Assembly (NCBI GenBank): GCA_037138655.1
Contig: JBAXHY010000003.1
Span: forward strand, 1 to 37,451
DNA: 37,451 bases
Reading direction: 5' to 3'
From: a bacterium
GTDB lineage: Bacteria; Patescibacteriota; Saccharimonadia; Saccharimonadales; SZUA-47
Position 1 is the stretch's first letter, and each line of letters begins with the position of its first letter. The position numbers and the translations under genes are program-made. Below, piece by piece: positions 14,070 through 32,252 of the stretch. The notes under the pieces were generated by a model. It had not been told where the DNA came from, did no database searches, and saw only the letters and a list, made by a program, of their open reading frames with translations.

Positions 14070-15179
14070 TTAAGGAAAACGTATGTATTTATTAAAGAAA
14101 TATACAGACACTGTTGCTTCGCTATATTCACCAGATACTTGTGCGTTATACTGACTTATTCTCATAGTTCCGTCGCCGTACACGGTCTCTACATAAGCAA
14201 CGTGACCAAAACCACCACCTGTAGCTACACCAACATCCCCTGCTCTTGGACTATTAAACTGCCATGAAGCCGGTGCTGCATACACCCAGTTTTTTGCGTT
14301 TCCGTAATACATTGGTGCCTGATGACCCGAACGTTCGACTGCCCATGCCGCGTAACTAACACATTGTCTTGTACAATAGCCCCATCTGTCTGGACCTTCA
14401 CCCGGACCACAGCCGTAAGGAATCATACTAAATGCGTAATCGTTATACGGGTAACCACCGTTATTGCCATTACCTCGTTCTAGCTGAATTTGAGCAAATA
14501 GTGCTTTGTTAACTTCGGCTTGCTGAGATTTTAAGGAACTAACCATTGATCTATATCGCGCTTCGTCACCTTGAGTTTGTTCTAATAATCCTACACGTTC
14601 ACTACGGCTTGCAGCAACCGCATCTTTTTGTGCTTGTTGAATTTTTAACAGTTCTTCTTGTTCGTCTTGCTGTGATTGAATTTGTTGTTTTAACAAAATT
14701 ACTTTTTCGGTTGATTTTTGGATTGCCGATTTTAGCCTTGTTAAGTATTCTTGACTGTCAATAAACTGAGAAAAACTATCGCTGCCAATTAACAGTTCTA
14801 CTGACGATGCACCGCCCTTTTTGTACAGTGCCACCATGCTGTCTTTAAGCAGGTCTTTTTGTTTATCTAGTTCTGCTTGTGTTGCGTCCAAATTTGCCTG
14901 CAGTTCGGCAATTTTAAGAGTTGTTTGAGCAATTTGATTATTAGCTTGTTCGATTTGAATATCTAATGCAGCGACTGCTTTTTTTAAGTTATCTGCCTGA
15001 GCCGATAGTTCTTTAGCTTTTGCATTGCCGTCATTAATTTGTGCTTGCAGAGCCTTTACTTGAGCCGACAGTTCGGTAGAACTTATTGCGTTTGTGTTAC
15101 TATTTAAAAACCCAAAAAAAAGTATAGGTATAATTAAAAACGAAGATAATTTTTGTCTTAGACGTAGAGTCTTATTCAC
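14070..15179 (-). CDS. Secreted coiled-coil + CHAP peptidoglycan hydrolase (PcsB/CwlO-like)
   Basis: Signal peptide, long coiled coil, QCVSYA and GHVAYVE CHAP motifs; near ftsEX. Confidence 0.9.
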   Translation of the reverse strand: MNKTLRLRQKLSSFLIIPILFFGFLNSNTNAISSTELSAQVKALQAQINDGNAKAKELSAQADNLKKAVAALDIQIEQANNQIAQTTLKIAELQANLDATQAELDKQKDLLKDSMVALYKKGGASSVELLIGSDSFSQFIDSQEYLTRLKSAIQKSTEKVILLKQQIQSQQDEQEELLKIQQAQKDAVAASRSERVGLLEQTQGDEARYRSMVSSLKSQQAEVNKALFAQIQLERGNGNNGGYPYNDYAFSMIPYGCGPGEGPDRWGYCTRQCVSYAAWAVERSGHQAPMYYGNAKNWVYAAPASWQFNSPRAGDVGVATGGGFGHVAYVETVYGDGTMRISQYNAQVSGEYSEATVSVYFFNKYIRFP

Positions 15180-15228: not shown

Positions 15229-15837
15229 CTATTGTTGAGTATTAGCAGCTATTAAAGCCTGGCTAATCGTATGTTCTAATTCGACTGGGTTAATATCTGC
15301 TTCAGAAAAAATTTCGGTAGTAGTATCGTACGATTCGTTTTCTATATTACTTATTAATGGCACCATTTCGTCGCTAAATTTTTTATTCATAATATTGTTA
15401 ACTTCTTCAGTTACAACATCATCCTTATAATTACGGGCTTTTAACCCCTGCGTAAATAATCCTCTTAAAACATCAAACTCAGCATTTAAATCATCTACAG
15501 GTTTGTATGTTTCGCTACTAGTACTTTTTGAAGAAGTAGTTTGAACAATTTTAAAAAACTTACCAGTATATACATCCAAATTGTAAGAAGTTTGTTTTAG
15601 TACAGCATCAGAACTTGAACCTTCGTCAAAAGTAACTGAATACGAACGATAATTGTTTCCTTCAGGAAAATGAAGAGTATCTTGCCAAGGACTTTCGATA
15701 GTATAAACACTGCCGTCAGGGTGCATGTACGAATCCGACCTGTCGTCCGAAAGAGCGTATAATTTTGCAAGATTTTTTAAGTCGTGCTTAAGGCTTACAA
15801 GTGGATCTTTAAGATGTTCGTTCGAATCGTGAATCAT
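15229..15837 (-). CDS. Hypothetical acidic protein (orphan)
   Basis: 202-aa ORF between ftsX and the CHAP gene with its own promoter. Confidence 0.65.
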   Translation of the reverse strand: MIHDSNEHLKDPLVSLKHDLKNLAKLYALSDDRSDSYMHPDGSVYTIESPWQDTLHFPEGNNYRSYSVTFDEGSSSDAVLKQTSYNLDVYTGKFFKIVQTTSSKSTSSETYKPVDDLNAEFDVLRGLFTQGLKARNYKDDVVTEEVNNIMNKKFSDEMVPLISNIENESYDTTTEIFSEADINPVELEHTISQALIAANTQQ

Positions 15838-15889: not shown

Positions 15890-16837
15890 CTACCAGTGTT
15901 TAAGTTTTAGGTGTTTGTGCATTGCAAGAAGAGACGAAACAATTCCTACAATTATTCCTAAAAATACAGATGCAAACAACAAAAGAATCATCATGCCCGT
16001 GCTAGTAAAAAAGTTATAGCTTTGCGCAAATTCTGCTTGATTTTGTAGTTTAGGACCTAGGCTTAAAATTGCAGTATATACAGATACATTAGCTAAAATA
16101 CCGGCAATTATGCCGTACATGCACGATTCAACTAAAAATGGACCTCTGATGTAGTTTGGCGTAGCACCTATTAGCTTCATTATTCTTATTTCTTCACCTC
16201 TAGTAAAAATCGCCATACGTATTGTGTTAAAAATAATTAATACCGATACCGCGGCAAATAATACTGCGGCAAAAATACTACCTCGCACTATATATTTTTG
16301 AGCACTAGTTGCACGTTCGATAGTTTCTTTTGCAACGTCATTTTTACCCACCGACACATCGTCTACAGCATCTTTATAGCCATCTTCTTTTGCCACCTTT
16401 ACTACTGCTCCACTTTTAGATAAATCTGTTAAAGAAACTTCGAGTGATTCTGGTAAAGTTGTGTTGCCAGTTAGTGCAAGAGCTTGTTCTATAAATACTT
16501 TGTCGCCTTCTGACACATTTGTTTTGAATCTTCGTTCGGCCTCTCGACGATCCACATAAGCTACGTCGTCTACGCCTTGTTCGGCTTTTAGCCTACTCAT
16601 TATAATAGTGCGTCTTGGTTCTGATACGTCGTCTTTAAGGTAAACGGTAACTTTGATTTTTTTGCTTAGTTCTTTTACTGCATTACGGGCAGTAACATTA
16701 AGTACTACGGCAGAAAGTATTATAGTTAACGCTACCATCATAACTGCTGTTGCAGCAATAGATAACCAGGCGTTTCTTATAAAGTTATTGCCTCCTGATC
16801 GTATTATTCTTAAAAGACTAATTAGTTTTCTTTTCAT
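15890..16837 (-). CDS. ftsX: Cell division permease FtsX
   Basis: RNAWLS, extracytoplasmic domain, NTIRMAIFTRGEEIRIMKLIGAT..IRGPF. Confidence 0.95.
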   Translation of the reverse strand: MKRKLISLLRIIRSGGNNFIRNAWLSIAATAVMMVALTIILSAVVLNVTARNAVKELSKKIKVTVYLKDDVSEPRRTIIMSRLKAEQGVDDVAYVDRREAERRFKTNVSEGDKVFIEQALALTGNTTLPESLEVSLTDLSKSGAVVKVAKEDGYKDAVDDVSVGKNDVAKETIERATSAQKYIVRGSIFAAVLFAAVSVLIIFNTIRMAIFTRGEEIRIMKLIGATPNYIRGPFLVESCMYGIIAGILANVSVYTAILSLGPKLQNQAEFAQSYNFFTSTGMMILLLFASVFLGIIVGIVSSLLAMHKHLKLKHW

Positions 16838-17511
16838 TTATAACTGCCGCCAGATTTGTCGGACACTATGTGGCCATCTGTTATAGTAATAACTCTACGT
16901 TTTAACTTATTTACGATTTCTTGGTTATGGGTAGTTAAAAGAACCGTTGTTCCGTAATGATTAATTTTTTCTAATACTCTAATTACATCCCATGCGTGCT
17001 TAGGGTCAAGGTTGCCAGTAGGTTCGTCTGCAATAAGAATTTTAGGCTGCCGTACGACTGCTCTTGCTATTGCTACACGTTGTCTTTCTCCACCAGATAA
17101 TTCGCCTGGGTAATTATCTGCCTTGCCTTTTAGGCCAACTAAATCAAGCACTTTAGGCACAGTGTGTCTGATTTCTTTATTAGATAATCCTACAATTTCT
17201 AGTGCAAATGCTACGTTTTCGAATACGGTTTTACCTGGTAGTAATTTAAAGTCCTGAAACACAACTCCGATTTTTCTTCGTAAAAAAGGGATATCTTTGT
17301 CTTTTAGCCGTTCGTAGTCTATTCCTCCAACAATAATCTTGCCACTAGTCGGCTTTTCTTCTCTGGTTAGCAGTTTAAGTAGTGTACTTTTGCCCGCACC
17401 GCTGGTTCCTACAATAATAACAAATTCTTTAGGCTCAACATGAAGACTAATGCGTTCTAGCGCAATTCCCTTTTTGTTATAGCTTTTGCTAACTCGATCT
17501 AAAAGTATCAC
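16834..17511 (-). CDS. ftsE: Cell division ATP-binding protein FtsE
   Basis: GTSGAGKST, RRKIGVVFQDFKLL, LSGGERQR, ADEPTGNLD; overlaps ftsX. Confidence 0.96.
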   Translation of the reverse strand: MILLDRVSKSYNKKGIALERISLHVEPKEFVIIVGTSGAGKSTLLKLLTREEKPTSGKIIVGGIDYERLKDKDIPFLRRKIGVVFQDFKLLPGKTVFENVAFALEIVGLSNKEIRHTVPKVLDLVGLKGKADNYPGELSGGERQRVAIARAVVRQPKILIADEPTGNLDPKHAWDVIRVLEKINHYGTTVLLTTHNQEIVNKLKRRVITITDGHIVSDKSGGSYK

Positions 17512-25123: not shown

Positions 25124-25846
25124 TTATACTCCTAAAATCGAGGTTGTTGCAGCAACACAGGCGGTTTCTGCACGCAAGGTAAATTGAGCTATGTTTAGTT
25201 TTGTACAATTAGCCTCTAGGAGTTGTTTTTCGGCATCAGTCCATCCGCCCTCAGGGCCAATAAAAACGCCTACTGGTGTCTTTGAGTCAACAGTTACTAG
25301 TCCTTTGTCTACAGCTTCTTGGTGTTGTTCGGCAAAATACAGTGTCATTTTATCTTTAAATTCGTCTATTACAGCTTGAATCCCCAGAGGTTCACGTACG
25401 CGTGGAATATCACTTCGTCCACATTGTTCTGATGCTTCTTTGACGATTTTTAATGCTCGCTCTTCGTCAAATCCAGTTTTTTCGGTTCTGCTACTCAAAA
25501 TTGGCACAAAATGAGACACACCAAGTTCTGTGCATTTTTGCATAACCCATTCGTTTTTGTCTTTTTTTAACATGCTCCAAAATAAATATAATTCACGTTT
25601 TGGATATACTGGTTCAAGTTCTGTTACCAAATCCAAGCCAATACTTAGTTCTTCTATTTTGTGAATTTTATAAAGTCGGTCTTCGCCTTGTCCGTTAAAC
25701 AAAATAAGTTCATCGCCAACTTTATATCTTAAAACTCGTGACCATTGGTTAAATAACTCTGCGTCGTTTACCCAAATATGTTGCCGTAGTTCGATTGCAC
25801 CGTATTTGTCATGCAATTTGCCTACGTAAAATCTATGTAACTTCAT
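25124..25846 (-). CDS. rsmE: 16S rRNA m3U1498 methyltransferase
   Basis: RVLR, QKCTELGV, EASEQCGR, IGPEGG, LRAETA. Confidence 0.95.
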   Translation of the reverse strand: MKLHRFYVGKLHDKYGAIELRQHIWVNDAELFNQWSRVLRYKVGDELILFNGQGEDRLYKIHKIEELSIGLDLVTELEPVYPKRELYLFWSMLKKDKNEWVMQKCTELGVSHFVPILSSRTEKTGFDEERALKIVKEASEQCGRSDIPRVREPLGIQAVIDEFKDKMTLYFAEQHQEAVDKGLVTVDSKTPVGVFIGPEGGWTDAEKQLLEANCTKLNIAQFTLRAETACVAATTSILGV

Positions 25847-27105
25847 TATTTTAACTCTAGCACAGCCAATGATTCAATGTGAGGTGTTCTTGGAAAAAAA
25901 TTATAACCTTCAAAAAATTTAATTTTATATCCGGCGTCTGTAAGTAATTTTATGTCTCTTGAATGAGTACTTGGATTGCAAGATAAGTAAGCTATAACAG
26001 GAGGTTTAACTTCTATTAGTCTATTTGTAACATAAGACCCCAAACCTGCTCTGGGCGGGTCAACAATAACAGCTTCTTTACCCGTTATGTAATCTAGTGA
26101 CTTGTCGGCAGAGGCATGAATAACTTTAATCGGAAGATCGCCAATGTTTTTCTTTGCCATTTCGATATTTGCTGCATCAAGTTCTATTAATGCGGTTGTG
26201 CCAGCTAGTGGTATTCCAATAGAACCAACTCCACTATAAAGGTCAATTTTTGGTGAACCACCCAATGCGTCACCGATTCTTGCTAGTGCTGTTTCGAAAA
26301 CAGGAATATTGACCTGAAAAAACGACAATACGTCATAAGTTAATTTTGTTCCCATTACAGTGTCCTGAAGCGTACGCTTGCCTTCTTGGTGCAAAAGTTC
26401 GGTAGGCACAGATGCCGGGCTTCTTGGATTGCTGTGATAAATTAAAAGTCCTTTTAATGAATCAGGGCAAGTAAGTTTAGGAAACGATTTTGGTTTTACG
26501 AATAATGCAGCAACGGCGTCGCCGGCAACGTTACAGCGAATAATTATAGATTTAATGTCGCCTGCACGTATAGCTTTTTTGCCGGTAGTTAGAGTGTTTA
26601 GTTGTTCTACTATATCTGCAACTGCTTCGTTAATTGCGGGCTGCGCGAGTGCGCTTCCTACAACTTTTGTTTTTCCATGACTTCCACGGACAAAATGAGC
26701 TAAACTTATACCTTCATTATCTCCCCAAAAACCGAACTCCATTTTGCTTCTGTAGCCTTCGCTTTTTTTACCAAATTCAAATTTAAAATCTGGTAAATCT
26801 ACTTTTTCGCGGGCGAATGCTTCTGCCAAAATTTCTTTTTTAGATTTATTTTCGGCTTCAAAAGTCATTATTTGCCAAGGACTTGTAGCTAAATAACTAG
26901 CTGGTTCACGCGGGCTGATTCTGTCTGCGCTTGGCTTAATAATTTCTTCGGCTAGTGCTTCTGCAAAACCTTTTTTACTTTTTAAAAGTCTGATGTTTAC
27001 GACTTCACCCGGTAAGGCGTTCCAAACAAATACTTTTCTGCCGTCTGATAAAGTAGCAAGACCTTGTCCGCCATGTACTAATTTTTCTATTGTAACTTCT
27101 TCCAT
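25846..27105 (-). CDS. TRAM-domain RNA m5U methyltransferase (RlmD/TrmA family)
   Basis: TRAM domain, SFFQVN, DLYSGVG, VDPPRAG, YLSCNP, FPRTPHIE; the usual Fe-S cysteine cluster is absent. Confidence 0.9.
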   Translation of the reverse strand: MEEVTIEKLVHGGQGLATLSDGRKVFVWNALPGEVVNIRLLKSKKGFAEALAEEIIKPSADRISPREPASYLATSPWQIMTFEAENKSKKEILAEAFAREKVDLPDFKFEFGKKSEGYRSKMEFGFWGDNEGISLAHFVRGSHGKTKVVGSALAQPAINEAVADIVEQLNTLTTGKKAIRAGDIKSIIIRCNVAGDAVAALFVKPKSFPKLTCPDSLKGLLIYHSNPRSPASVPTELLHQEGKRTLQDTVMGTKLTYDVLSFFQVNIPVFETALARIGDALGGSPKIDLYSGVGSIGIPLAGTTALIELDAANIEMAKKNIGDLPIKVIHASADKSLDYITGKEAVIVDPPRAGLGSYVTNRLIEVKPPVIAYLSCNPSTHSRDIKLLTDAGYKIKFFEGYNFFPRTPHIESLAVLELK

Positions 27106-27194: not shown

Positions 27195-27237
27195 TAAATA
27201 ATAAAAGACGCACGTAGCGTGCGTCTTTTATTATTTA
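27195..27237 (-). terminator. Strong intrinsic terminator after heliorhodopsin
   Basis: 20-bp perfect inverted repeat TAAATAATAAAAGACGCACG-tag-CGTGCGTCTTTTATTATTTA. Confidence 0.85.
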
Positions 27238-27252
27238 TTAATCTGTATAAGA

Positions 27253-28200
27253 TTATGGACGAAGAATGCCTGCAAATACTTGCCATGCAAGTACTGACTT
27301 TGCAACCAACGAAAGAATCATGTAGACCTTTTCGCCGTATAAATATTCTGCCCACTTACCTTTTTTAGCGTACTGAAGGTACATATTTACTGCAAAACAG
27401 TTAAAGAACAAGAATATGCTTACAAGTATTGCATAAACAAAACTTGGTGGACCGCCACCTTCGCCGTATTTACCAGAACCAATAATATAAATTGCATATA
27501 CAATCCAAGGAGCGATTCCAGAAATACATCCTACGATATAGCTTGACCAATCAACTTTGCTTTTGCCCTGGTTTACGATTTCCATGACAAGGCCCAAAAG
27601 ATTCATGACTGAAGTTAGTGCAAACATCATTATTAATGATCCTAGGTCAAAAACTCCTGCTAATAGCGCTATTGCAACCATCATTGTGCTGGCGCTAAGA
27701 CTGTATTCGATCCAACGAGCCTTATTGATGCCCTTAGAAAGTCCAGCTTCGTAACGCTTTCGGTACCAAGTTGCAATGCTAACGTGAGCGACTGCTGACA
27801 TTGCAAAAAAGGCTACAATTAACCAAGCAAGGTTAATGTCGAATAGTGAATGACTTGCAGCAACAAGCACTGGACGTTCTGTTGTACTAGCTAGTGAATC
27901 TAATGAAAGATAATTAGTTGTTACTGTTTGCAAGCCCATTCCAGGTTTTGCTAACCAAAGTACAAGCGCTGCTTGAACTGCATGTAATACTGCCATAGAA
28001 ATATTCCAACGGAACAATCTGTCCATTACAGATTTTGCTGCAGTTGGTTTTACTACTGTAGTTTTACTGGCAACTGCTTTTTTAGCAACTGCTGGTTTAA
28101 CAACCTTTTTAGATACTGTTTTTTTAGTTACTTTAGTTGGTGATTTTTTTACTGTTTTGGTCTTTTTAGTTGTCGATGATTTTTTAGTAGTTGTAGCCAT
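27253..28200 (-). CDS. Heliorhodopsin with Lys-rich N-terminal extension
   Basis: 7 TM; LHAVQA (TM1 His), SAVAH (TM2 His), RWIEYSLSAS (counterion Glu), SLVAKSVLAWQ (retinal Lys). Confidence 0.95.
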   Translation of the reverse strand: MATTTKKSSTTKKTKTVKKSPTKVTKKTVSKKVVKPAVAKKAVASKTTVVKPTAAKSVMDRLFRWNISMAVLHAVQAALVLWLAKPGMGLQTVTTNYLSLDSLASTTERPVLVAASHSLFDINLAWLIVAFFAMSAVAHVSIATWYRKRYEAGLSKGINKARWIEYSLSASTMMVAIALLAGVFDLGSLIMMFALTSVMNLLGLVMEIVNQGKSKVDWSSYIVGCISGIAPWIVYAIYIIGSGKYGEGGGPPSFVYAILVSIFLFFNCFAVNMYLQYAKKGKWAEYLYGEKVYMILSLVAKSVLAWQVFAGILRP

Positions 28201-28206
28201 GCAAAT

Positions 28207-28235
28207 AGTTTAACCTTTAGCGCTCATGCATACAA
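28207..28235 (-). promoter_or_regulatory. Candidate heliorhodopsin promoter, likely leaderless
   Basis: TTGTAT-17 nt-TAAACT-6 nt-ATG (28200). Confidence 0.55.
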
Positions 28236-28248
28236 GGTGTGGAATCAA

Positions 28249-28728
28249 CTACATTTGCTTAAACGGTTTATGACAAATTCCACGACCTGTGCGTTCGGCA
28301 AATTTTTGATGATAATCTTCGGCTATATAAAATGTTTTAGCTTCTACTAATTCAGTAATTATTGGTTTATTAAAACTTGATTTTGAGTTAGTAATAACTT
28401 GTTTTGCGACTTCATATTGTTGGTTATCAAAATAAAAAATTGCTGACCTATATTGGTCGCCCGTATCTGGTCCCTGACCACCTATTTGCGTTGGATCATG
28501 CATATACAAAAACTGTTCTACTAAAGTTTTGTAGCTAACTATTGTGTCGTCAAATTCTAGTTGAACTGCTTCTGCATGACCTGTGCTTTTGTAGCAAACG
28601 TCTTCGTAAGTTGGGTCGGTTGTATGACCGCCAATGTAGCCAACCGTAGAATTTGTAACTCCACTAATTTGATCAAAATAAAACTGAACTCCCCAAAAAC
28701 ATCCTGCGGCAAATATAGCTTTAGTCAT
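28249..28728 (-). CDS. msrA: Peptide-methionine (S)-S-oxide reductase
   Basis: GCFWG active site, GHAEAV, HDPT, QYRSAIF, AEDYHQ; no signal peptide. Confidence 0.96.
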   Translation of the reverse strand: MTKAIFAAGCFWGVQFYFDQISGVTNSTVGYIGGHTTDPTYEDVCYKSTGHAEAVQLEFDDTIVSYKTLVEQFLYMHDPTQIGGQGPDTGDQYRSAIFYFDNQQYEVAKQVITNSKSSFNKPIITELVEAKTFYIAEDYHQKFAERTGRGICHKPFKQM

Positions 28729-29317
28729 CTGATTTACTACTTTTATTTGTTTTTAAATTTGTCTGATTTTCTTGCATTTTAGATTTTATAGTTACTAGTT
28801 TAATGTACGAATTACTGTCGTCATTATTATAGAATCCTAAACTTGATTGTTCGTTTTCTGACACTTCGTAATAAATATTTCCGGATACTTTTTGTCCTAC
28901 AGACAAAGGACCTCCACCAAATAAAGGTGCTCCCTTTTGTATAGCTGGTAGGCTTAACGTGTTAGTGTCTGAGCTTACTAATTTAAACTGCATATAAGGC
29001 GACAGCTGAACGACGTGGTCGGAAGTGTTGGCTACGGTTACCGTAAAAGCTACTGTATTGCCGTTATCTATCTTTTTATAATTATCTACCGTTACTGAAT
29101 AATCGTTAGATTTGCTTATTTGTTCACCTAGTACGTTATTTACAGGATTAATTACTGAAGAGGCTATACTGTCAGAAGAAGACTGCTTGACTCTGTAATC
29201 TACGTATCTAGAAAAACTTAATATACCAACAGTAACAGTTGCTACCAAGATACTTAACGAGATTTTTTTGTTTAACATATCTACTTTCTGTATACGTGTA
29301 TTAAGTTTAGTATACAC
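28721..29317 (-). CDS. Membrane-anchored DUF4352-like (Ig-like) protein
   Basis: One TM, then FTVTVANTS...FKLV...LSVGQKVSGNIYYEV pattern; start could be the downstream Met. Confidence 0.65.
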   Translation of the reverse strand: MYTKLNTRIQKVDMLNKKISLSILVATVTVGILSFSRYVDYRVKQSSSDSIASSVINPVNNVLGEQISKSNDYSVTVDNYKKIDNGNTVAFTVTVANTSDHVVQLSPYMQFKLVSSDTNTLSLPAIQKGAPLFGGGPLSVGQKVSGNIYYEVSENEQSSLGFYNNDDSNSYIKLVTIKSKMQENQTNLKTNKSSKSDD

Positions 29318-29369
29318 CTATCTTGCTTAGTTTAAATTATATAACATTATTGATGTATTAACAATATTA

Positions 29370-29912
29370 TTAATTGGTCATGATTTTTTTATCCAGAAGC
29401 TGACAAAGTGCAGTATCTTTTTTACCTACTTCTGCTACATCGTAACACCACGTTAGTACTTCATCTTTAATGGGCACCATATAAGCAAGTTCACCCTTAG
29501 CTGGCACGTTCGGTAGGTATGAACCAGCCTGAAAAGGATCGTTAACAAGGACCATTTCTATACCGTATTTAGCTCCCTTTTTGTCCTTAATATAACTTTG
29601 TAATACAGGCGTTAACCACCACGCTTTGGTGTCGATATTAACTAAACTTACGTTAACACTTATAAATTCATAACCTTCTTTTGGCGGAACCATAGATTTT
29701 TTAACTGGCTCTACCTTCCACGTTAAGGATTCTAGTTTAAGTATGCCAACTTTTTTAGGAAACGATGTTTGTAACGCCATGGTATAGCGACGATATACAA
29801 AAAATGACAATATAATAATTATCGTAGCAAACAACGCGGCTATTAAAGTTACTGTCTTTTTATTAAGGTCTACGTGTTTAGACTTTTTATTGGTAGATTT
29901 TTTAGCTTTCAT
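29370..29912 (-). CDS. Membrane-anchored DUF4352 protein
   Basis: One TM, PKEGYEFISVNVSLVN...IKDKKGAKY...KGELAYMVP. Confidence 0.75.
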   Translation of the reverse strand: MKAKKSTNKKSKHVDLNKKTVTLIAALFATIIIILSFFVYRRYTMALQTSFPKKVGILKLESLTWKVEPVKKSMVPPKEGYEFISVNVSLVNIDTKAWWLTPVLQSYIKDKKGAKYGIEMVLVNDPFQAGSYLPNVPAKGELAYMVPIKDEVLTWCYDVAEVGKKDTALCQLLDKKIMTN

Positions 29913-30847
29913 TAGATTACTGGTCCAACTATATATGTATTAAATATGCTCTTTACGCCACTTTGACCACCGTGTTGTGCAGTAAATGCGCTAGTTGCAT
30001 TACCGCCACATAATGGTGTGATTCGGTTTGATCCGCCGTTATGATTTGCGACTTCGTTTCCGTTACTACCATTTACTCCGGAACCAGAAAGAATAAGGTA
30101 ATTTGAATTATATATAACCCAACAATTTGCAGCAGAATTATGAGTTGCGATTTGAGCAGCAGTACATGCGCCACCTGATGTTCCACAAGCAGATGTAGGT
30201 ACAGCTACGCTAATAGTTACTGTTTTGGTGCCGCTGCTGCCGGCTATGTTTGAACAAGCTAGCGTGTAGCTAGTGGTGCTAGTTAAACTAACAGACTGGC
30301 TTCCGCTTGCTGCCTTTGATCCAGCAAAACTACCACCACCCCCAGTGCACGTAACAGGAAGTGTTGCGTTAGCGCTTGTTATCCATGACAGTACGGTTGA
30401 ACCACCTGACGAAACACTGGTTGGTGAGCCTGTAAAAGTAAGTGTTGGCGCAACTTTTGCAGCACCTGCAGGACTCGATGGTTGTGTTATTGGAATAGTT
30501 GCAGGTTTTGTGGCCGGAGTTGTCGTAGGCGCAGTTGATGTAGTTTGTTGCGCAGTCGTATTAACTGGCTGAGTGGATGTTGAAGTTGAAGTTTGATCTG
30601 CTGGTAGTGTTTTAGTTGAATTATTATTAACAGATTCTGCAGTCGATGAATCGTCTGAATTGGAAATTACAAAGCTACTTATTTTTAAAAGTACGTTTTT
30701 TGGCACTATTAATCCTGCGATTAAAATTAATGTCAAAAATCCTAATGCAATAAATAGCGAAATAGCGACAGATTTTTTAAGAGACATCCTACGGGAACCC
30801 TTAGATGCAAATGTACCTTTTATAATATTTATTGGTGATAAAGACAT
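29912..30847 (-). CDS. Membrane-anchored surface protein: S/T/P stalk, Ig-like domain, C-terminal cytochrome b5-like heme domain
   Basis: QIATHNSAANCWVIY, HNGG (variant of HPGG), CGGNATSAF..QH, YIVG fit the cyt b5 pattern. Confidence 0.78.
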   Translation of the reverse strand: MSLSPINIIKGTFASKGSRRMSLKKSVAISLFIALGFLTLILIAGLIVPKNVLLKISSFVISNSDDSSTAESVNNNSTKTLPADQTSTSTSTQPVNTTAQQTTSTAPTTTPATKPATIPITQPSSPAGAAKVAPTLTFTGSPTSVSSGGSTVLSWITSANATLPVTCTGGGGSFAGSKAASGSQSVSLTSTTSYTLACSNIAGSSGTKTVTISVAVPTSACGTSGGACTAAQIATHNSAANCWVIYNSNYLILSGSGVNGSNGNEVANHNGGSNRITPLCGGNATSAFTAQHGGQSGVKSIFNTYIVGPVI

Positions 30848-30869
30848 ATGATTCCTTTTAATAATATTT

Positions 30870-32252
30870 TCATGTCATTGCAAATTCTTCTGAATGTATC
30901 TTGCTGTTTGGTACACCTAGTTCACGTAGCTGCGATCTTAACGACTTCATCATTGGTGGGGGTCCACATATAAAAATCTCTTTGCCGTCTAATCCACCAC
31001 ACATTTGAGATATTTTATCTGCAGTTAAAAATCCTTCTTGTTCTTTTGCTACATATGGCATGTATCTAAACGAAGGATACTTTTGTGGTAGATATTCTGC
31101 AATTGCTTTTTGATCTAATAATTCAGTCCGATTTACTACGCTATAAACCAAATCTACTGCCCCACTATTGCTATTATAACTTCTGGCCATACTTAGGAAC
31201 GGCGTAACACCAATACCACCAGCAACCCAAATTTGTGGTGCTGTGCCAAAATTTGTATAAGTAAATTTGCCATACGCACCTTCTATTTCTGCAACTGCAC
31301 CAATCTTGATATTTTTTAATCCAATAGTGTAATCACCTAGTGATTTTATATATAGTCTTATGTTATTTTCGTCGGGTGAACTAGCAATAGAAAACGGATG
31401 TGCTTCACGAATAACGCCCTGTTGGCCACTCCACAAAAATCTAATAAAAACAAACTGACCAGGTTTGTAATCTATGGATTTTTCCATTGGTTCCATAGTT
31501 AACGCTACGACGTTGGTTTCTAGCTCTGAAACGCCAATAACTTTATAAGGATATCGTCTGACAAAAACATTACTCATTACAGTACGATAAAAAAATGAAC
31601 ATAAACCAATTATTACCCATAAAAGCATGTAGTATTTTAAAAACGCATCACGTGAAGTATCTGAGCTAATTAAAATTACATGTAATCCTGCAAACATAAA
31701 AGCTACGCCTAAAAACTTATGGGTAAATAACCAAAAACGATACGGTAGTTTTACAAAAAAAGTTAATACCAACAAAACAACCATTCCAAAAAATGCAACT
31801 ATTCCTGCATTAATTGCAGTACCCTGTTCGGCTTCAAAAAAAGTTTTGTTTAAGTCTAGGCTTCTTGGTAGCAAAAATTTTGCTGAATCTTTAATTGAAT
31901 CTAGTGCCTTGATGTCTATATATTTAAGCGCTAAAAATAAAGGATGAAAAACCAAAAGAATAAGTGCTATTCCACCCGTTATATGGTGTGCAATATATAC
32001 CCTATTAAGCCCACCAAAAAAATTCTCCATCCACCGAGTACGTGCAGCTAAAAGTAAATTAATTGCGTATAAAACCAGTCCAATAAGTCCTGTTACTTTA
32101 CCGAACATGTTAAAAAACATTAGCGGACTGTGCAATGAAGATGCGAAGGAATTAATCTGAAACCATCTAACAAACGGTACCGCGCTAAAAATCCAGATGA
32201 GTATCCATCCACCATAATGCTGTAGCCATAATTTATAATCGTTTTCGTTCAT
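30870..32252 (-). CDS. Ferric-reductase / bacterial NOX-type flavocytochrome (TM heme domain + FAD/NAD(P)H domain)
   Basis: His pairs in YIAHH...VFHP and FTHK...GLHV; PGQF, HPFSIAS, AGGIGVTPF, CGP, terminal EEF. Confidence 0.9.
   Translation of the reverse strand: MNENDYKLWLQHYGGWILIWIFSAVPFVRWFQINSFASSLHSPLMFFNMFGKVTGLIGLVLYAINLLLAARTRWMENFFGGLNRVYIAHHITGGIALILLVFHPLFLALKYIDIKALDSIKDSAKFLLPRSLDLNKTFFEAEQGTAINAGIVAFFGMVVLLVLTFFVKLPYRFWLFTHKFLGVAFMFAGLHVILISSDTSRDAFLKYYMLLWVIIGLCSFFYRTVMSNVFVRRYPYKVIGVSELETNVVALTMEPMEKSIDYKPGQFVFIRFLWSGQQGVIREAHPFSIASSPDENNIRLYIKSLGDYTIGLKNIKIGAVAEIEGAYGKFTYTNFGTAPQIWVAGGIGVTPFLSMARSYNSNSGAVDLVYSVVNRTELLDQKAIAEYLPQKYPSFRYMPYVAKEQEGFLTADKISQMCGGLDGKEIFICGPPPMMKSLRSQLRELGVPNSKIHSEEFAMT

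What the first reader, a model, noticed from the sequence alone, without database searches (positions are those of the whole stretch)
27253..28200. Heliorhodopsin with a histone-H1-like basic N-terminal tail
Seen: all hallmark residues are intact, preceded by about 57 aa of K/T/V/A/S low-complexity sequence (MATTTKKSSTTKKTKTVKKSPTKVTKK...) with no acidic residue. Established: heliorhodopsins have inverted topology, so the N-terminus is cytoplasmic. Inference: the tail may bind DNA, RNA or anionic lipid and act as the output of the receptor. No retinal-synthesis genes (blh/crt) are in the window, so retinal may be scavenged from a host.
Basis: partly seen in the sequence, partly recalled or inferred. 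Interest (0 to 1): 0.75.

Follow-up and report, generated by a model that had tools for sequence, protein, structure and literature searches.

The report
Heliorhodopsin with a polylysine cytoplasmic tail
This is a genuine light-sensor protein (heliorhodopsin) of a tiny freshwater Saccharibacteria bacterium that really carries a floppy, strongly positively charged 58-residue tail inside the cell; the tail is shared by many relatives, including some that can no longer bind the light pigment, and its job is still untested.

Summary
ORF 27253-28200(-) is a full-length heliorhodopsin (Pfam E 5e-87; 46% identical to solved TaHeR) with counterion Glu165, Ser297 and Lys301. Residues 1-58 hold 18 Lys and no Asp, Glu or Arg.

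The tail is translated. Met1 lies 6 nt after a -10-like hexamer, the geometry of this genome's leaderless genes. The start MATTxKK is conserved. AlphaFold gives no structure (pLDDT about 50).

The tail has a conserved 8-17 residue cap and a leash of variable length (median 62 aa) and constant make-up (Lys, Thr, Ala, Ser). It occurs in 84 of the 120 closest protein clusters. Among named genomes it was seen only in Saccharibacteria. It is not a general trait of this genome's membrane proteins.

"Histone-H1-like" is a likeness of composition only. The tail also sits on relatives that lost the retinal lysine, so it is probably not only a light output.

Best guess: an electrostatic tether to a cytoplasmic polyanion, untested. 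No retinal-making enzymes were found in the genome, as already published for this group.

This scan found the same feature earlier in at least eight other genomes.

The parts
27253..28200 (-). Heliorhodopsin gene, 315 codons plus stop
   Evidence: ORF. Pfam PF18761 E 5.4e-87. TaHeR 6is6 E 1.6e-65. AF2 model has pLDDT 89, and Foldseek puts TaHeR on top with target TM-score 0.91-0.93.
28027..28200 (-). Polycationic disordered N-terminal tail, residues 1-58 (18 Lys, no acidic residue)
   Evidence: Composition. Shuffle test. pLDDT 48-56 with no secondary structure for residues 1-47. No family or PDB match for the tail alone.
28177..28200 (-). Conserved N-terminal cap MATTTKKS (residues 1-8)
   Evidence: Among 135 long tails: A at position 2 in 116, T at 3 in 97, T at 4 in 94, K at 6 in 92. 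Third codon positions differ between loci. The motif occurs on no other K-rich protein of the genome.
27253..28026 (-). Seven-helix heliorhodopsin core (residues 59-315) with stop; Glu165 codon at 27706-27708, Lys301 codon at 27298-27300
   Evidence: Helices 58-83, 124-143, 160-180, 186-209, 219-245, 253-277 and 286-313, with a beta hairpin at 90-123. Key residues.
28207..28212 (-). -10-like hexamer TAAACT, 6 nt upstream of the ATG: probable promoter of a leaderless mRNA
   Evidence: Sequence. Genome-wide, TANNNT peaks at exactly this spacing: 114 of 882 genes against about 28-44 at other offsets. All 7 long-tailed relatives examined have TANNNT 5-7 nt before their ATG, 6 with a TGn extension.
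27195..27237 (-). Intrinsic terminator hairpin with U-tract just after the stop codon
   Evidence: RNA fold -27.9 kcal/mol, z -8.9, 0 of 200 shuffles as stable. The consensus scanner did not list it.
28249..28728 (-). msrA (peptide methionine sulfoxide reductase), upstream neighbour; context only
   Evidence: Pfam PMSR E 5.1e-57. The adjacency is not conserved: 0 of 5 same-family loci have it and 1 other locus does.
25846..27105 (-). TRAM/uracil-5 RNA methyltransferase (RumA-like), downstream neighbour; context only
   Evidence: Pfam. The order HeR-RumA-RsmE is kept in 5 of 5 same-family loci and in one short-tailed orthologous locus.

Best explanation
Shown. The gene encodes a bona fide, probably retinal-binding heliorhodopsin. 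It is made from its own leaderless, monocistronic transcript. Its cytoplasmic N-terminus is a 58-residue, intrinsically disordered polycation. The tail has two parts. The first is a position-conserved cap (M)ATTxKK. The second is a leash whose sequence and length drift freely (35-128 residues in relatives) while its make-up is held: about 28% Lys, 20% Thr, 14% Ala, 12% Ser, almost no acidic, aromatic or Arg residues. Any acidic residues are confined to the membrane-near end.

Inferred. The tail works by charge. It reaches from the membrane into the very small cell and holds a cytoplasmic polyanion at the heliorhodopsin dimer. Nucleic acid (nucleoid DNA, or ribosomal or other RNA) is the most likely target. 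The cap may add a specific contact. Relatives that have lost the retinal lysine keep the tail, so tethering is probably a constitutive function of the 7TM-plus-tail protein. In this Lys301/Glu165 member, light may only modulate it.
For: Translation from Met1:
- There is a stop 4 codons upstream, and no other start before Met59.
- The hexamer TAAACT lies 6 nt before the ATG, at the genome-wide peak for leaderless genes. The same geometry is seen in 7 of 7 long-tailed relatives.
- No Shine-Dalgarno or -10 element precedes Met59.
- The shuffle test and codon periodicity support coding.

Conservation:
- A polybasic tail of 35 aa or more occurs in 84 of the 120 closest clusters and in 49 of 150 representatives at 50% identity.
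- The window's clade has it in 76 of 78 rows.
- It is present on a second heliorhodopsin subfamily that scores only about 95-135 bits against the Pfam model, in 25 of 43 loci.
- The cap is conserved at protein level, not at DNA level.

Disorder: pLDDT is about 50 and there is no secondary structure.

Charge pattern: median net charge is +0.29 per residue. Of 224 acidic residues in 135 tails, 192 lie in the membrane-near 40% and only 9 in the distal 40%. A distal, purely cationic part fits a target away from the membrane.

Not needed for topology: heliorhodopsins of other phyla have 3-20 residue N-termini that are often acidic, and short-tailed orthologues exist at the same locus.

Not a genome-wide habit: this is the top-ranked N-terminus of 894 ORFs.

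Independence from retinal: 32 of 142 long-tailed rows lack Lys301.

Precedent: positive cytoplasmic residues of another heliorhodopsin mediate partner binding (abstract of PMC9529153).
Against: - No binding data of any kind exist, so the target is inferred from charge alone.
- The tail shows no homology to any nucleic-acid-binding domain.
- It is Thr/Ser-rich and Pro-poor, unlike linker-histone tails (their make-up is recalled, not tested).
- A membrane-tethered polycation would also stick to anionic lipid head groups.
- The state is evolutionarily labile: at least 26 changes between long and not-long on a 303-row quick tree, and most canonical heliorhodopsins of the same order manage without a tail.
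- Lys codons in the tail are 16 AAA to 2 AAG, against 6:6 in the core, so mutational or translational effects on A-rich DNA may contribute.
Confidence: 0.4

Rival explanations
1. Protein-partner leash. The polycationic tail and its conserved cap capture an acidic cytoplasmic protein by fly-casting, as other heliorhodopsins bind glutamine synthetase, photolyase or an ABC transporter.
For: - Partner binding of AbHeR depends on positively charged inner-loop residues (PMC9529153, abstract and passages).
- Further partners are reported (PMC9769723 and PMC11109279, abstracts only).
- A position-conserved 8-17 residue cap at the far end of a variable leash looks like a short linear motif.
- A photolyase-like gene exists elsewhere in the genome.
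Against: - No conserved neighbour suggests a partner. msrA adjacency is not conserved, and RumA/RsmE synteny is family-level gene order across a terminator.
- Glutamine synthetase was not found in the genome (the control rang in 14 of 14 genomes).
- No Hanks kinase or FHA protein is present that could read a Thr-rich cap.
Confidence: 0.2
2. Anionic-lipid binder. The tail lies on the inner membrane surface, binds PG or cardiolipin-type lipids, and sets the local lipid environment, clustering or localisation of the heliorhodopsin.
For: - The tail is tethered at the membrane, so the local lipid concentration is very high.
- The charge is strongly positive: +18 here, median +0.29 per residue.
- The inner loops are also basic (sequence).
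Against: - 112 of 135 tails have no aromatic residue and hydrophobic anchors are scarce, unlike typical polybasic membrane-binding segments (recalled).
- Acidic residues, when present, sit in the membrane-near part, and the purely cationic part is distal.
- A conserved distal cap is not needed for lipid binding.
Confidence: 0.17
3. Biogenesis or expression device. The Lys-rich, A-rich 5' coding region helps translation of the leaderless mRNA, tunes expression through AAA runs, or locks the N-in topology.
For: - The mRNA has leaderless geometry.
- The tail DNA is 50% A, with AAA:AAG of 16:2 against 6:6 in the core.
- The positive-inside rule (established knowledge).
Against: - 174 nt is far more than initiation needs.
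- The other 66 leaderless-type genes of the genome show no such N-terminus.
- The cap is conserved at protein level, not DNA level.
- Heliorhodopsins elsewhere insert with short or even acidic N-termini.
Confidence: 0.12
4. Neutral low-complexity expansion. Slippage-prone A-rich DNA grew a harmless tail with no function of its own.
For: - Length varies from 35 to 128 residues and the sequence is barely alignable.
- Gains or losses are repeated.
- The tail-only search finds no homologue.
Against: - Make-up, absence of acidic residues and the cap are held across subfamilies that score only about 95-135 bits against the same Pfam model.
- The frame stays open in all of them.
- In 8 of 10 genomes with two heliorhodopsin-family genes, the divergent copy has a polybasic tail, and the canonical copy's open frame leaves little room for one.
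Confidence: 0.06
5. Wrong start. The protein begins at Met59 and the 'tail' is an untranslated A-rich leader.
For: Met59 directly precedes helix 1, and some database entries of relatives start there (for example 257-aa forms).
Against: - The frame is open (1.6% of shuffles) and free of acidic residues (both in 0.025%).
- Codon periodicity is strong.
- The MATT start is conserved.
- The promoter hexamer lies 6 nt before Met1, with nothing before Met59.
Confidence: 0.02

Closest known systems
TaHeR, heliorhodopsin of a Thermoplasmatales archaeon (PDB 6is6, 7u55, 7clj), and 48C12 (6su3, 6uh3)
   Same: - Same family and fold: E 1.6e-65 and 46% identity to TaHeR, target TM-score 0.91-0.93.
- Same counterion Glu, SxxxK lysine and two histidines.
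- Same long extracellular beta hairpin.
   Different: The solved proteins start about 15 residues or fewer before helix 1 (chain positions). They have no polycationic tail.
Heliorhodopsins with N-terminal fusions or extensions described by Bulzu et al. 2021 (MORN-HeR, Znf-HeR, ntv1-ntv10; PMC8612252)
   Same: A cytoplasmic N-terminal addition to a heliorhodopsin, proposed there as a link to downstream partners. That paper states that many further extension types gave no hits.
   Different: Here there are no MORN repeats, no Cys and no zinc ribbon. Only ntv1-3 are described in the text I could read. Their Table S8 was not available to me and may already list this tail among ntv4-10.
Saccharimonadia heliorhodopsins reported by Chiriac et al. 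2022 (PMC9166423), and retinal scavenging by Saccharibacteria (Jaffe et al. 2022, PMC9296517)
   Same: Same organism group and habitat (freshwater lakes; one search lists lake and freshwater metagenomes). The same SLVAK helix-7 motif is named there. The same absence of blh is reported.
   Different: In the passages I read, those papers do not mention the tail, its cap, or lysine-less relatives.
Lysine-rich tails of linker histone H1 and bacterial H1-like nucleoid proteins (recalled, not tested by a call)
   Same: A disordered, Lys-rich, acid-poor polycation. Lys doublets recur about every 5 residues. 15 of 135 tails hold an [ST]P[KR][KR] motif.
   Different: No sequence relationship was found. 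There is no globular DNA-binding domain. The tail is Thr/Ser/Val-rich, not Ala/Pro-rich, and it is attached to a 7TM membrane protein.
Lysine-less type-1 rhodopsins (Rh-noK, freshwater FArhodopsins; PMC10308929)
   Same: Relatives of this protein have lost the Schiff-base lysine while staying intact. This suggests a job that does not need retinal.
   Different: Those are type-1 rhodopsins. This window's protein keeps its lysine. Searches found no paper on lysine-less heliorhodopsins.

Membership tests
Heliorhodopsin (Pfam PF18761) | Full-length match to the family profile above the curated cut-off | tested here: met
   291.6 bits against a cut-off of 26.7, profile positions 1-242 of 242.
Heliorhodopsin (Pfam PF18761) | Seven-helix fold like solved heliorhodopsins, with the extracellular beta hairpin | tested here: met
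   AF2 pLDDT 89. Foldseek hits TaHeR at E 3e-20, rmsd 1.8-2.4 A, target TM-score 0.91-0.93. Type-1 rhodopsins score only 0.55-0.7.
Heliorhodopsin (Pfam PF18761) | Schiff-base lysine in an SxxxK motif on helix 7 | tested here: met
   Ser297 and Lys301 (SLVAK) align without gaps to TaHeR SLVAK. Lys is present at this column in 240 of 303 relatives.
Heliorhodopsin (Pfam PF18761) | Glutamate counterion on helix 3 | tested here: met
   Glu165 in RWIEYS aligns with the Glu of TaHeR that is Asp in the E108D mutant entry 7clj.
Heliorhodopsin (Pfam PF18761) | Inverted topology, N-terminus in the cytoplasm | not testable with these tools
   The family property is stated in PMC9529153 and PMC9166423. Here the predicted inner loops (144-159, 210-218, 278-285) are Lys/Arg-rich and the tail carries +18, which agrees with N-in.
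Heliorhodopsin (Pfam PF18761) | Binds all-trans retinal and shows a slow photocycle without ion pumping | not testable with these tools
   Needs expression and spectroscopy.
Linker histone H1 or H1-like nucleoid proteins | Sequence relationship of the tail to H1 tails, or a linker-histone globular domain | tested here: not met
   The tail alone gave 0 Pfam families at E <= 10, 0 PDB chains at E <= 10, and no usable Atlas look-alike.
Linker histone H1 or H1-like nucleoid proteins | Binds DNA | not testable with these tools
MORN-HeR and Znf-HeR fusions (Bulzu et al. 2021) | MORN repeats or a CxxC...CxxC zinc ribbon at the N-terminus | tested here: not met
   The only Pfam hit is PF18761. The tail has no Cys. 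A true Znf-HeR was seen for comparison in a Thermoplasmatales locus, L124.

The most novel reading that the evidence does not exclude
Heliorhodopsin-family proteins of Saccharimonadia may be membrane-anchored, histone-tail-like tethers. Their conserved (M)ATTxKK cap and polylysine leash would hold the nucleoid or ribosomal RNA at the membrane of these ultra-small cells. In retinal-bearing members such as this one, light would change that hold. That would be a photoreceptor acting directly on nucleic acid without any transducer. The lysine-less paralogues would be the light-blind form of the same device.
Probability: 0.12. Interest if true: 0.8.

Novelty: new variant of a known kind. Interest (0 to 1): 0.5.

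Why it matters
What heliorhodopsins do has been open since their discovery. Only a few partner proteins are known, each in one organism.

This natural, clade-wide addition to the cytoplasmic face has a defined architecture: a conserved cap, a charge-conserved leash, and a distal cationic part. It is kept even where the retinal lysine is lost. That gives a concrete and cheap handle: compare tail-on and tail-off constructs, in light and dark, for binding to DNA, RNA, lipid or protein.

It also hints that part of the family's function needs no light.

If the tail proves to be a mere biogenesis aid or a neutral expansion, the gene is an ordinary Saccharibacteria heliorhodopsin.

Tried and rejected
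- Start at Met59: rejected.
- Homology of the tail to any family: none found. Pfam at E <= 10, PDB at E <= 10, ESM Atlas features. The 5.8-billion-protein search on residues 1-58 returned only the protein itself among 226 candidates.
- Thr-rich cap as a phospho-acceptor read by FHA proteins: no Hanks kinase (PF00069; control rang in 11 of 14) and no FHA domain (control rang in 6 of 14) in the 99.35% complete genome. Idea dropped.
- Oxidative-stress operon with msrA: adjacency is not conserved, with 0 of 5 same-family loci and only 1 of 11 loci compared. The gene also has its own promoter and terminator.
- Glutamine synthetase as partner: not found in the genome.
- Basic tails as a general habit of this genome's membrane proteins: not seen. 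Other membrane proteins have 10-25 residue basic N-termini, and only a SecE-like protein has a longer mixed-charge one.
- Expression evidence: no RNA holder was listed among 20 runs.
- Contigs of four DNA runs laid on the gene showed no insertions or deletions. The tail was covered without differences in two runs (X2, X3), and coverage was patchy. This says little.
- Organism names for ten distant tailed representatives: only one carried a name, Candidatus Saccharimonadales.
- The simple terminator scan missed the hairpin that folding shows.
- BCD (PF15461) rang in no control genome, so that negative is weak by itself.
Full report
**What is there**

The minus-strand ORF 27253..28200 encodes 315 residues from an ATG. 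Pfam PF18761 (Heliorhodopsin) matches residues 62-313 over the whole profile, at E 5.4e-87. The best solved relative is the Thermoplasmatales heliorhodopsin TaHeR (6is6, E 1.6e-65).

In that alignment His73, His139, Glu165, Ser297 and Lys301 stand at the family's key positions. Glu165 aligns with the residue that is changed in the E108D mutant entry 7clj. An AlphaFold2 model built on 96 aligned sequences has pLDDT 89. Foldseek puts TaHeR and 48C12 on top, with target TM-scores of 0.87-0.93.

The 58 residues before Met59 hold 18 Lys, 13 Thr, 10 Val, 7 Ala, 6 Ser and 3 Pro. They hold no Asp, Glu or Arg.

**Is the tail translated?**

An in-frame TAA lies four codons before ATG 28200. No ATG, GTG or TTG occurs in frame until Met59.

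I shuffled codons 2-58 at the mononucleotide level 20,000 times:
- 1.6% of shuffles stayed open.
- 1.9% had no acidic residue.
- 0.025% had both properties.
- 0.005% reached 18 Lys.

Base use is strongly periodic by codon position.

The sequence TAAACT lies exactly 6 nt before the ATG. Over 882 crudely called genes of this genome, TANNNT peaks at that spacing: 114 genes against about 28-44 at offsets 12-29. The extended form TGnTANNNT peaks at 6 and 7 nt: 47 and 19 genes, against 0-6 from offset 10 onward. That is the signature of leaderless transcripts (the rule is established knowledge; the counts are mine).

All seven long-tailed relatives whose DNA I fetched have TANNNT 5-7 nt before their MAT... 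start codon, six of them with the TGn extension. Nothing comparable precedes Met59.

A strong hairpin with a U-tract follows the stop codon (-27.9 kcal/mol, z -8.9). The gene therefore looks like its own transcription unit.

No RNA run holding the stretch was listed, so expression itself is untested.

**Anatomy of the tail**

AlphaFold gives residues 1-47 a pLDDT of 48-56 and no secondary structure. Helix 1 starts at residue 58.

I analysed 135 long tails from relatives:
- Median length is 62 residues (range 35-128).
- Make-up is K 27.6%, T 19.7%, A 14.4%, S 11.9%, V 7.4%, P 4.6%, R 3.0% and D+E 2.7%.
- Median net charge is +0.29 per residue.
- 112 of the 135 have no aromatic residue.
- Of 224 acidic residues, 192 lie in the membrane-near two fifths and 9 in the distal two fifths.
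- Basic residues come as doublets that recur about every five positions.

The first residues are conserved by position. Position 2 is A in 116 of 135, position 3 is T in 97, position 4 is T in 94, and position 6 is K in 92. Conservation fades to the tail's background make-up after about position 8.

Third codon positions of the cap differ between loci. The 66 other genes of this genome with an extended -10 at 6-7 nt show no such N-terminus. No other Lys-rich protein of the genome starts this way. The cap is therefore held at the protein level.

**Distribution**

The word-indexed search found 4930 relatives among 8000 candidates scored. Of the 120 closest clusters, 84 have a polybasic stretch of 35 residues or more before helix 1, 30 do not, and 6 are N-terminally incomplete.

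The exhaustive search found 3133 representatives at E <= 0.001. Of the best 150, 49 have the tail, 92 do not, and 9 are incomplete.

I built a FastTree tree of 303 core sequences, after dropping 17 fragments. The window's protein sits in a clade where 76 of 78 rows are long-tailed. The state 'long' changes at least 26 times, against a mean of 100 (minimum 89) in 200 label shuffles. The trait is thus inherited but labile. The tree is a quick one and is unrooted for this purpose.

In species-representative genomes, a heliorhodopsin was found in 103 of 401 genomes of the phylum sample. That tally includes one unpublished genome, G154. It was found in 160 of 201 genomes of the same order and in 6 of 6 of the same family.

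Of 49 loci read from these searches, seven carry the long Lys-rich tail. Five are from the window's family and two from one other family. The other long open frames upstream were not Lys-rich.

Among 80 named loci from the genome collection (the best of 583 matches), 3 were cut by contig ends. Polybasic tails occurred in 4 of the remaining 77: two titled Saccharibacteria and two titled only 'bacterium'. None occurred in 31 loci of Dojkabacteria, Woykebacteria, Berkelbacteria, Dormiibacterota, Chloroflexota, Thermoplasmatota, Actinomycetota, Bacillota, Methanobacteriota or unspecified Patescibacteria. Those other lineages have N-termini of 3-20 residues, often acidic. One Thermoplasmatales locus shows the published zinc-ribbon form.

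**A second, divergent subfamily carries the same tail, and some members lack the lysine**

Many genomes of the order gave a weak Pfam match (about 95-135 bits). I fetched 43 such loci and read them:
- 25 have a polybasic tail of 35 residues or more.
- 17 of the 43 begin with MATT.
- In 19 tailed ones that begin with MA, the cap extends to about 17 residues, roughly MATT(T/K)K(S)(T)KAKTKTTKK.
- 11 of the 43 lack the helix-7 lysine, 6 of them among the tailed ones. The replacement is mostly Arg.

In the 303-row set, 63 rows lack Lys301: 32 of 142 long-tailed rows and 31 of 161 others. The flanking AWQ(V/I)(F/Y)AG motif aligns without gaps, so this is not an alignment slip.

One genome of the window's own family has, at the same RumA/RsmE-linked locus, a tailed copy with Val for the lysine and Gly for the counterion.

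In ten genomes that hold both a canonical copy (open frames of 256-281 aa) and a divergent copy, the divergent copy has a polybasic tail in eight.

The tail thus persists where covalent retinal binding cannot. This argues that it is not solely the output of a light signal.

**Context**

The genome has 914,760 bases in 80 contigs, is 99.35% complete and has 38% GC. Relatives' names place it in Candidatus Saccharimonadales/Saccharibacteria. Runs that hold the stretch are lake and freshwater metagenomes.

msrA lies 48 nt upstream. That adjacency is absent from all five same-family loci. The order heliorhodopsin-RumA-RsmE is kept in those five and in one short-tailed orthologous locus. I read this as gene order among kin, not as an operon.

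**Retinal**

- No match to BCD (PF15461), but its control rang nowhere, so this negative is weak.
- No match to blh TIGR03753.
- No match to RPE65 oxygenases; the control rang in 2 genomes.
- No match to amino-oxidase/crtI; the control rang in 14 of 14.
- One phytoene/squalene-synthase-like gene sits beside a polyprenyl synthase.

This agrees with the published view that rhodopsin-bearing Saccharibacteria lack blh and take retinal from others (PMC9296517, passages).

**Is it a general habit of this genome?**

No. Among 894 ORFs of 80 aa or more, this is the most basic and least hydrophobic or acidic N-terminus, scoring 16 against 8 for the next. The runners-up are ribosomal proteins and a SecE-like protein. 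Other membrane proteins have short basic N-termini of 10-25 residues.

**How it most likely works**

The following is shown:
- The protein is a retinal-competent heliorhodopsin.
- The tail is disordered, has a conserved tip, and carries its charge mainly away from the membrane.
- The tail is not needed for topology or insertion in the family at large.
- The tail is kept in light-blind relatives.

The following is inferred. The tail acts by charge on a cytoplasmic polyanion, most plausibly nucleic acid, and the cap adds a specific contact. I give this 0.4.

Real rivals are an acidic protein partner (0.2), anionic lipid (0.17) and a biogenesis or expression role (0.12). A neutral expansion (0.06) and a wrong start (0.02) are unlikely.

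Positive inner-face residues are already known to mediate partner binding in another heliorhodopsin (PMC9529153, abstract). Glutamine synthetase, that paper's partner, was not found here. A photolyase-like gene exists elsewhere in the genome.

The idea that the Thr-rich cap is a phospho-site was dropped, because no Hanks kinase and no FHA domain was found.

**Comparison with what is known**

The protein is a member of the heliorhodopsin family by every feature I could test.

'Histone-H1-like' does not hold as membership. The tail alone gave no Pfam or PDB match at E <= 10. It has no globular domain. Its make-up is Thr/Ser/Val-rich and not the Ala/Pro-rich make-up I recall for H1.

Heliorhodopsins in Saccharimonadia are published (PMC9166423, passages). 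N-terminal extensions of heliorhodopsins were catalogued by Bulzu et al. (PMC8612252 and its preprint, passages). They describe MORN, zinc-ribbon and Cys-rich forms. They add that many other extensions gave no hits. Their Table S8, which I could not see, may list this tail.

Full-text searches gave the following:
- 'heliorhodopsin' with 'lysine-rich': no paper.
- 'heliorhodopsin' with 'N-terminal extension': only Bulzu et al. was relevant, of 3 papers with 2 listed.
- Lysine-less heliorhodopsins: none found. Lysine-less type-1 rhodopsins are known (PMC10308929, passages).

**Earlier notes of this scan**

After I had formed this reading, look-ups showed that the scan had noted tailed and lysine-less Saccharibacteria heliorhodopsins in at least eight other genomes. 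They agree with my results. I did not take evidence from them.

**Verdict**

- The protein is a new variant of a known kind, and its mechanism is untested.
- Interest 0.5.

Noticed in passing
G000:C70:1441-2169 (L002), outside the window: The same genome also encodes a type-1 rhodopsin (Pfam Bac_rhodopsin E 1.4e-48). By my reading of the sequence it has a D-T-S motif in helix 3, like the published Saccharibacteria proton pumps. The organism therefore has two retinal proteins and no retinal pathway.
   Followed up: partly
Loci L134/L037, L136, L137, L167, L171, L173, L174 (genomes G406, G423, G445, G466, G493, G542, G480): Intact heliorhodopsin-family genes whose Schiff-base lysine is replaced (Arg in six, Val in one) still carry the MATT...polylysine tail. 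In the 303-row set, 63 rows lack the lysine. I found no paper on lysine-less heliorhodopsins.
   Followed up: partly
G542:C3:43650-45373 (part in L173): A canonical short-tailed heliorhodopsin and a divergent, tailed, lysine-less (Arg) paralogue lie in tandem on the same strand, about 250 nt apart.
   Followed up: no
Whole genome G000; in the window for example 25124-25846, 14070-15179, 15229-15837, 16834-17511: About 7% of genes (66 of 882) have an extended -10 element TGnTANNNT ending 6-7 nt before the start codon. This suggests widespread leaderless transcripts in this Saccharibacteria genome.
   Followed up: partly
G000:C76:385-1122, outside the window: A 245-aa protein has a helical N-terminal half and a C-terminal run of AKK/VAKK repeats. 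It is much closer in make-up to H1-like nucleoid proteins than the heliorhodopsin tail is. It has no Pfam family.
   Followed up: no
G000:C1:31672-33660, outside the window: A phytoene/squalene-synthase-like gene (SQS_PSY E 5.5e-38) lies next to a polyprenyl synthase, in a genome where no crtI-type desaturase was found. Its product is unclear.
   Followed up: no
window 28249-32252 (-): Upstream of the heliorhodopsin lies a run of redox-flavoured genes: msrA, two DUF4352 membrane-anchored proteins, a secreted Thr/Ser-rich protein with a weak cytochrome-b5-like end, and a NOX-like ferric-reductase/FAD/NAD protein.
   Followed up: no
window 28027-28200 (-): Lysine codons in the tail are 16 AAA to 2 AAG, against 6:6 in the core. 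This gives several runs of 6-8 A, which might slip in transcription or translation. Contigs of two runs that cover the tail showed no length variants.
   Followed up: partly
PDB 9vfc chain A: A solved 317-residue heliorhodopsin chain matches only from its residue 45 onward. It may carry an N-terminal extension or a tag. I did not look further.
   Followed up: no
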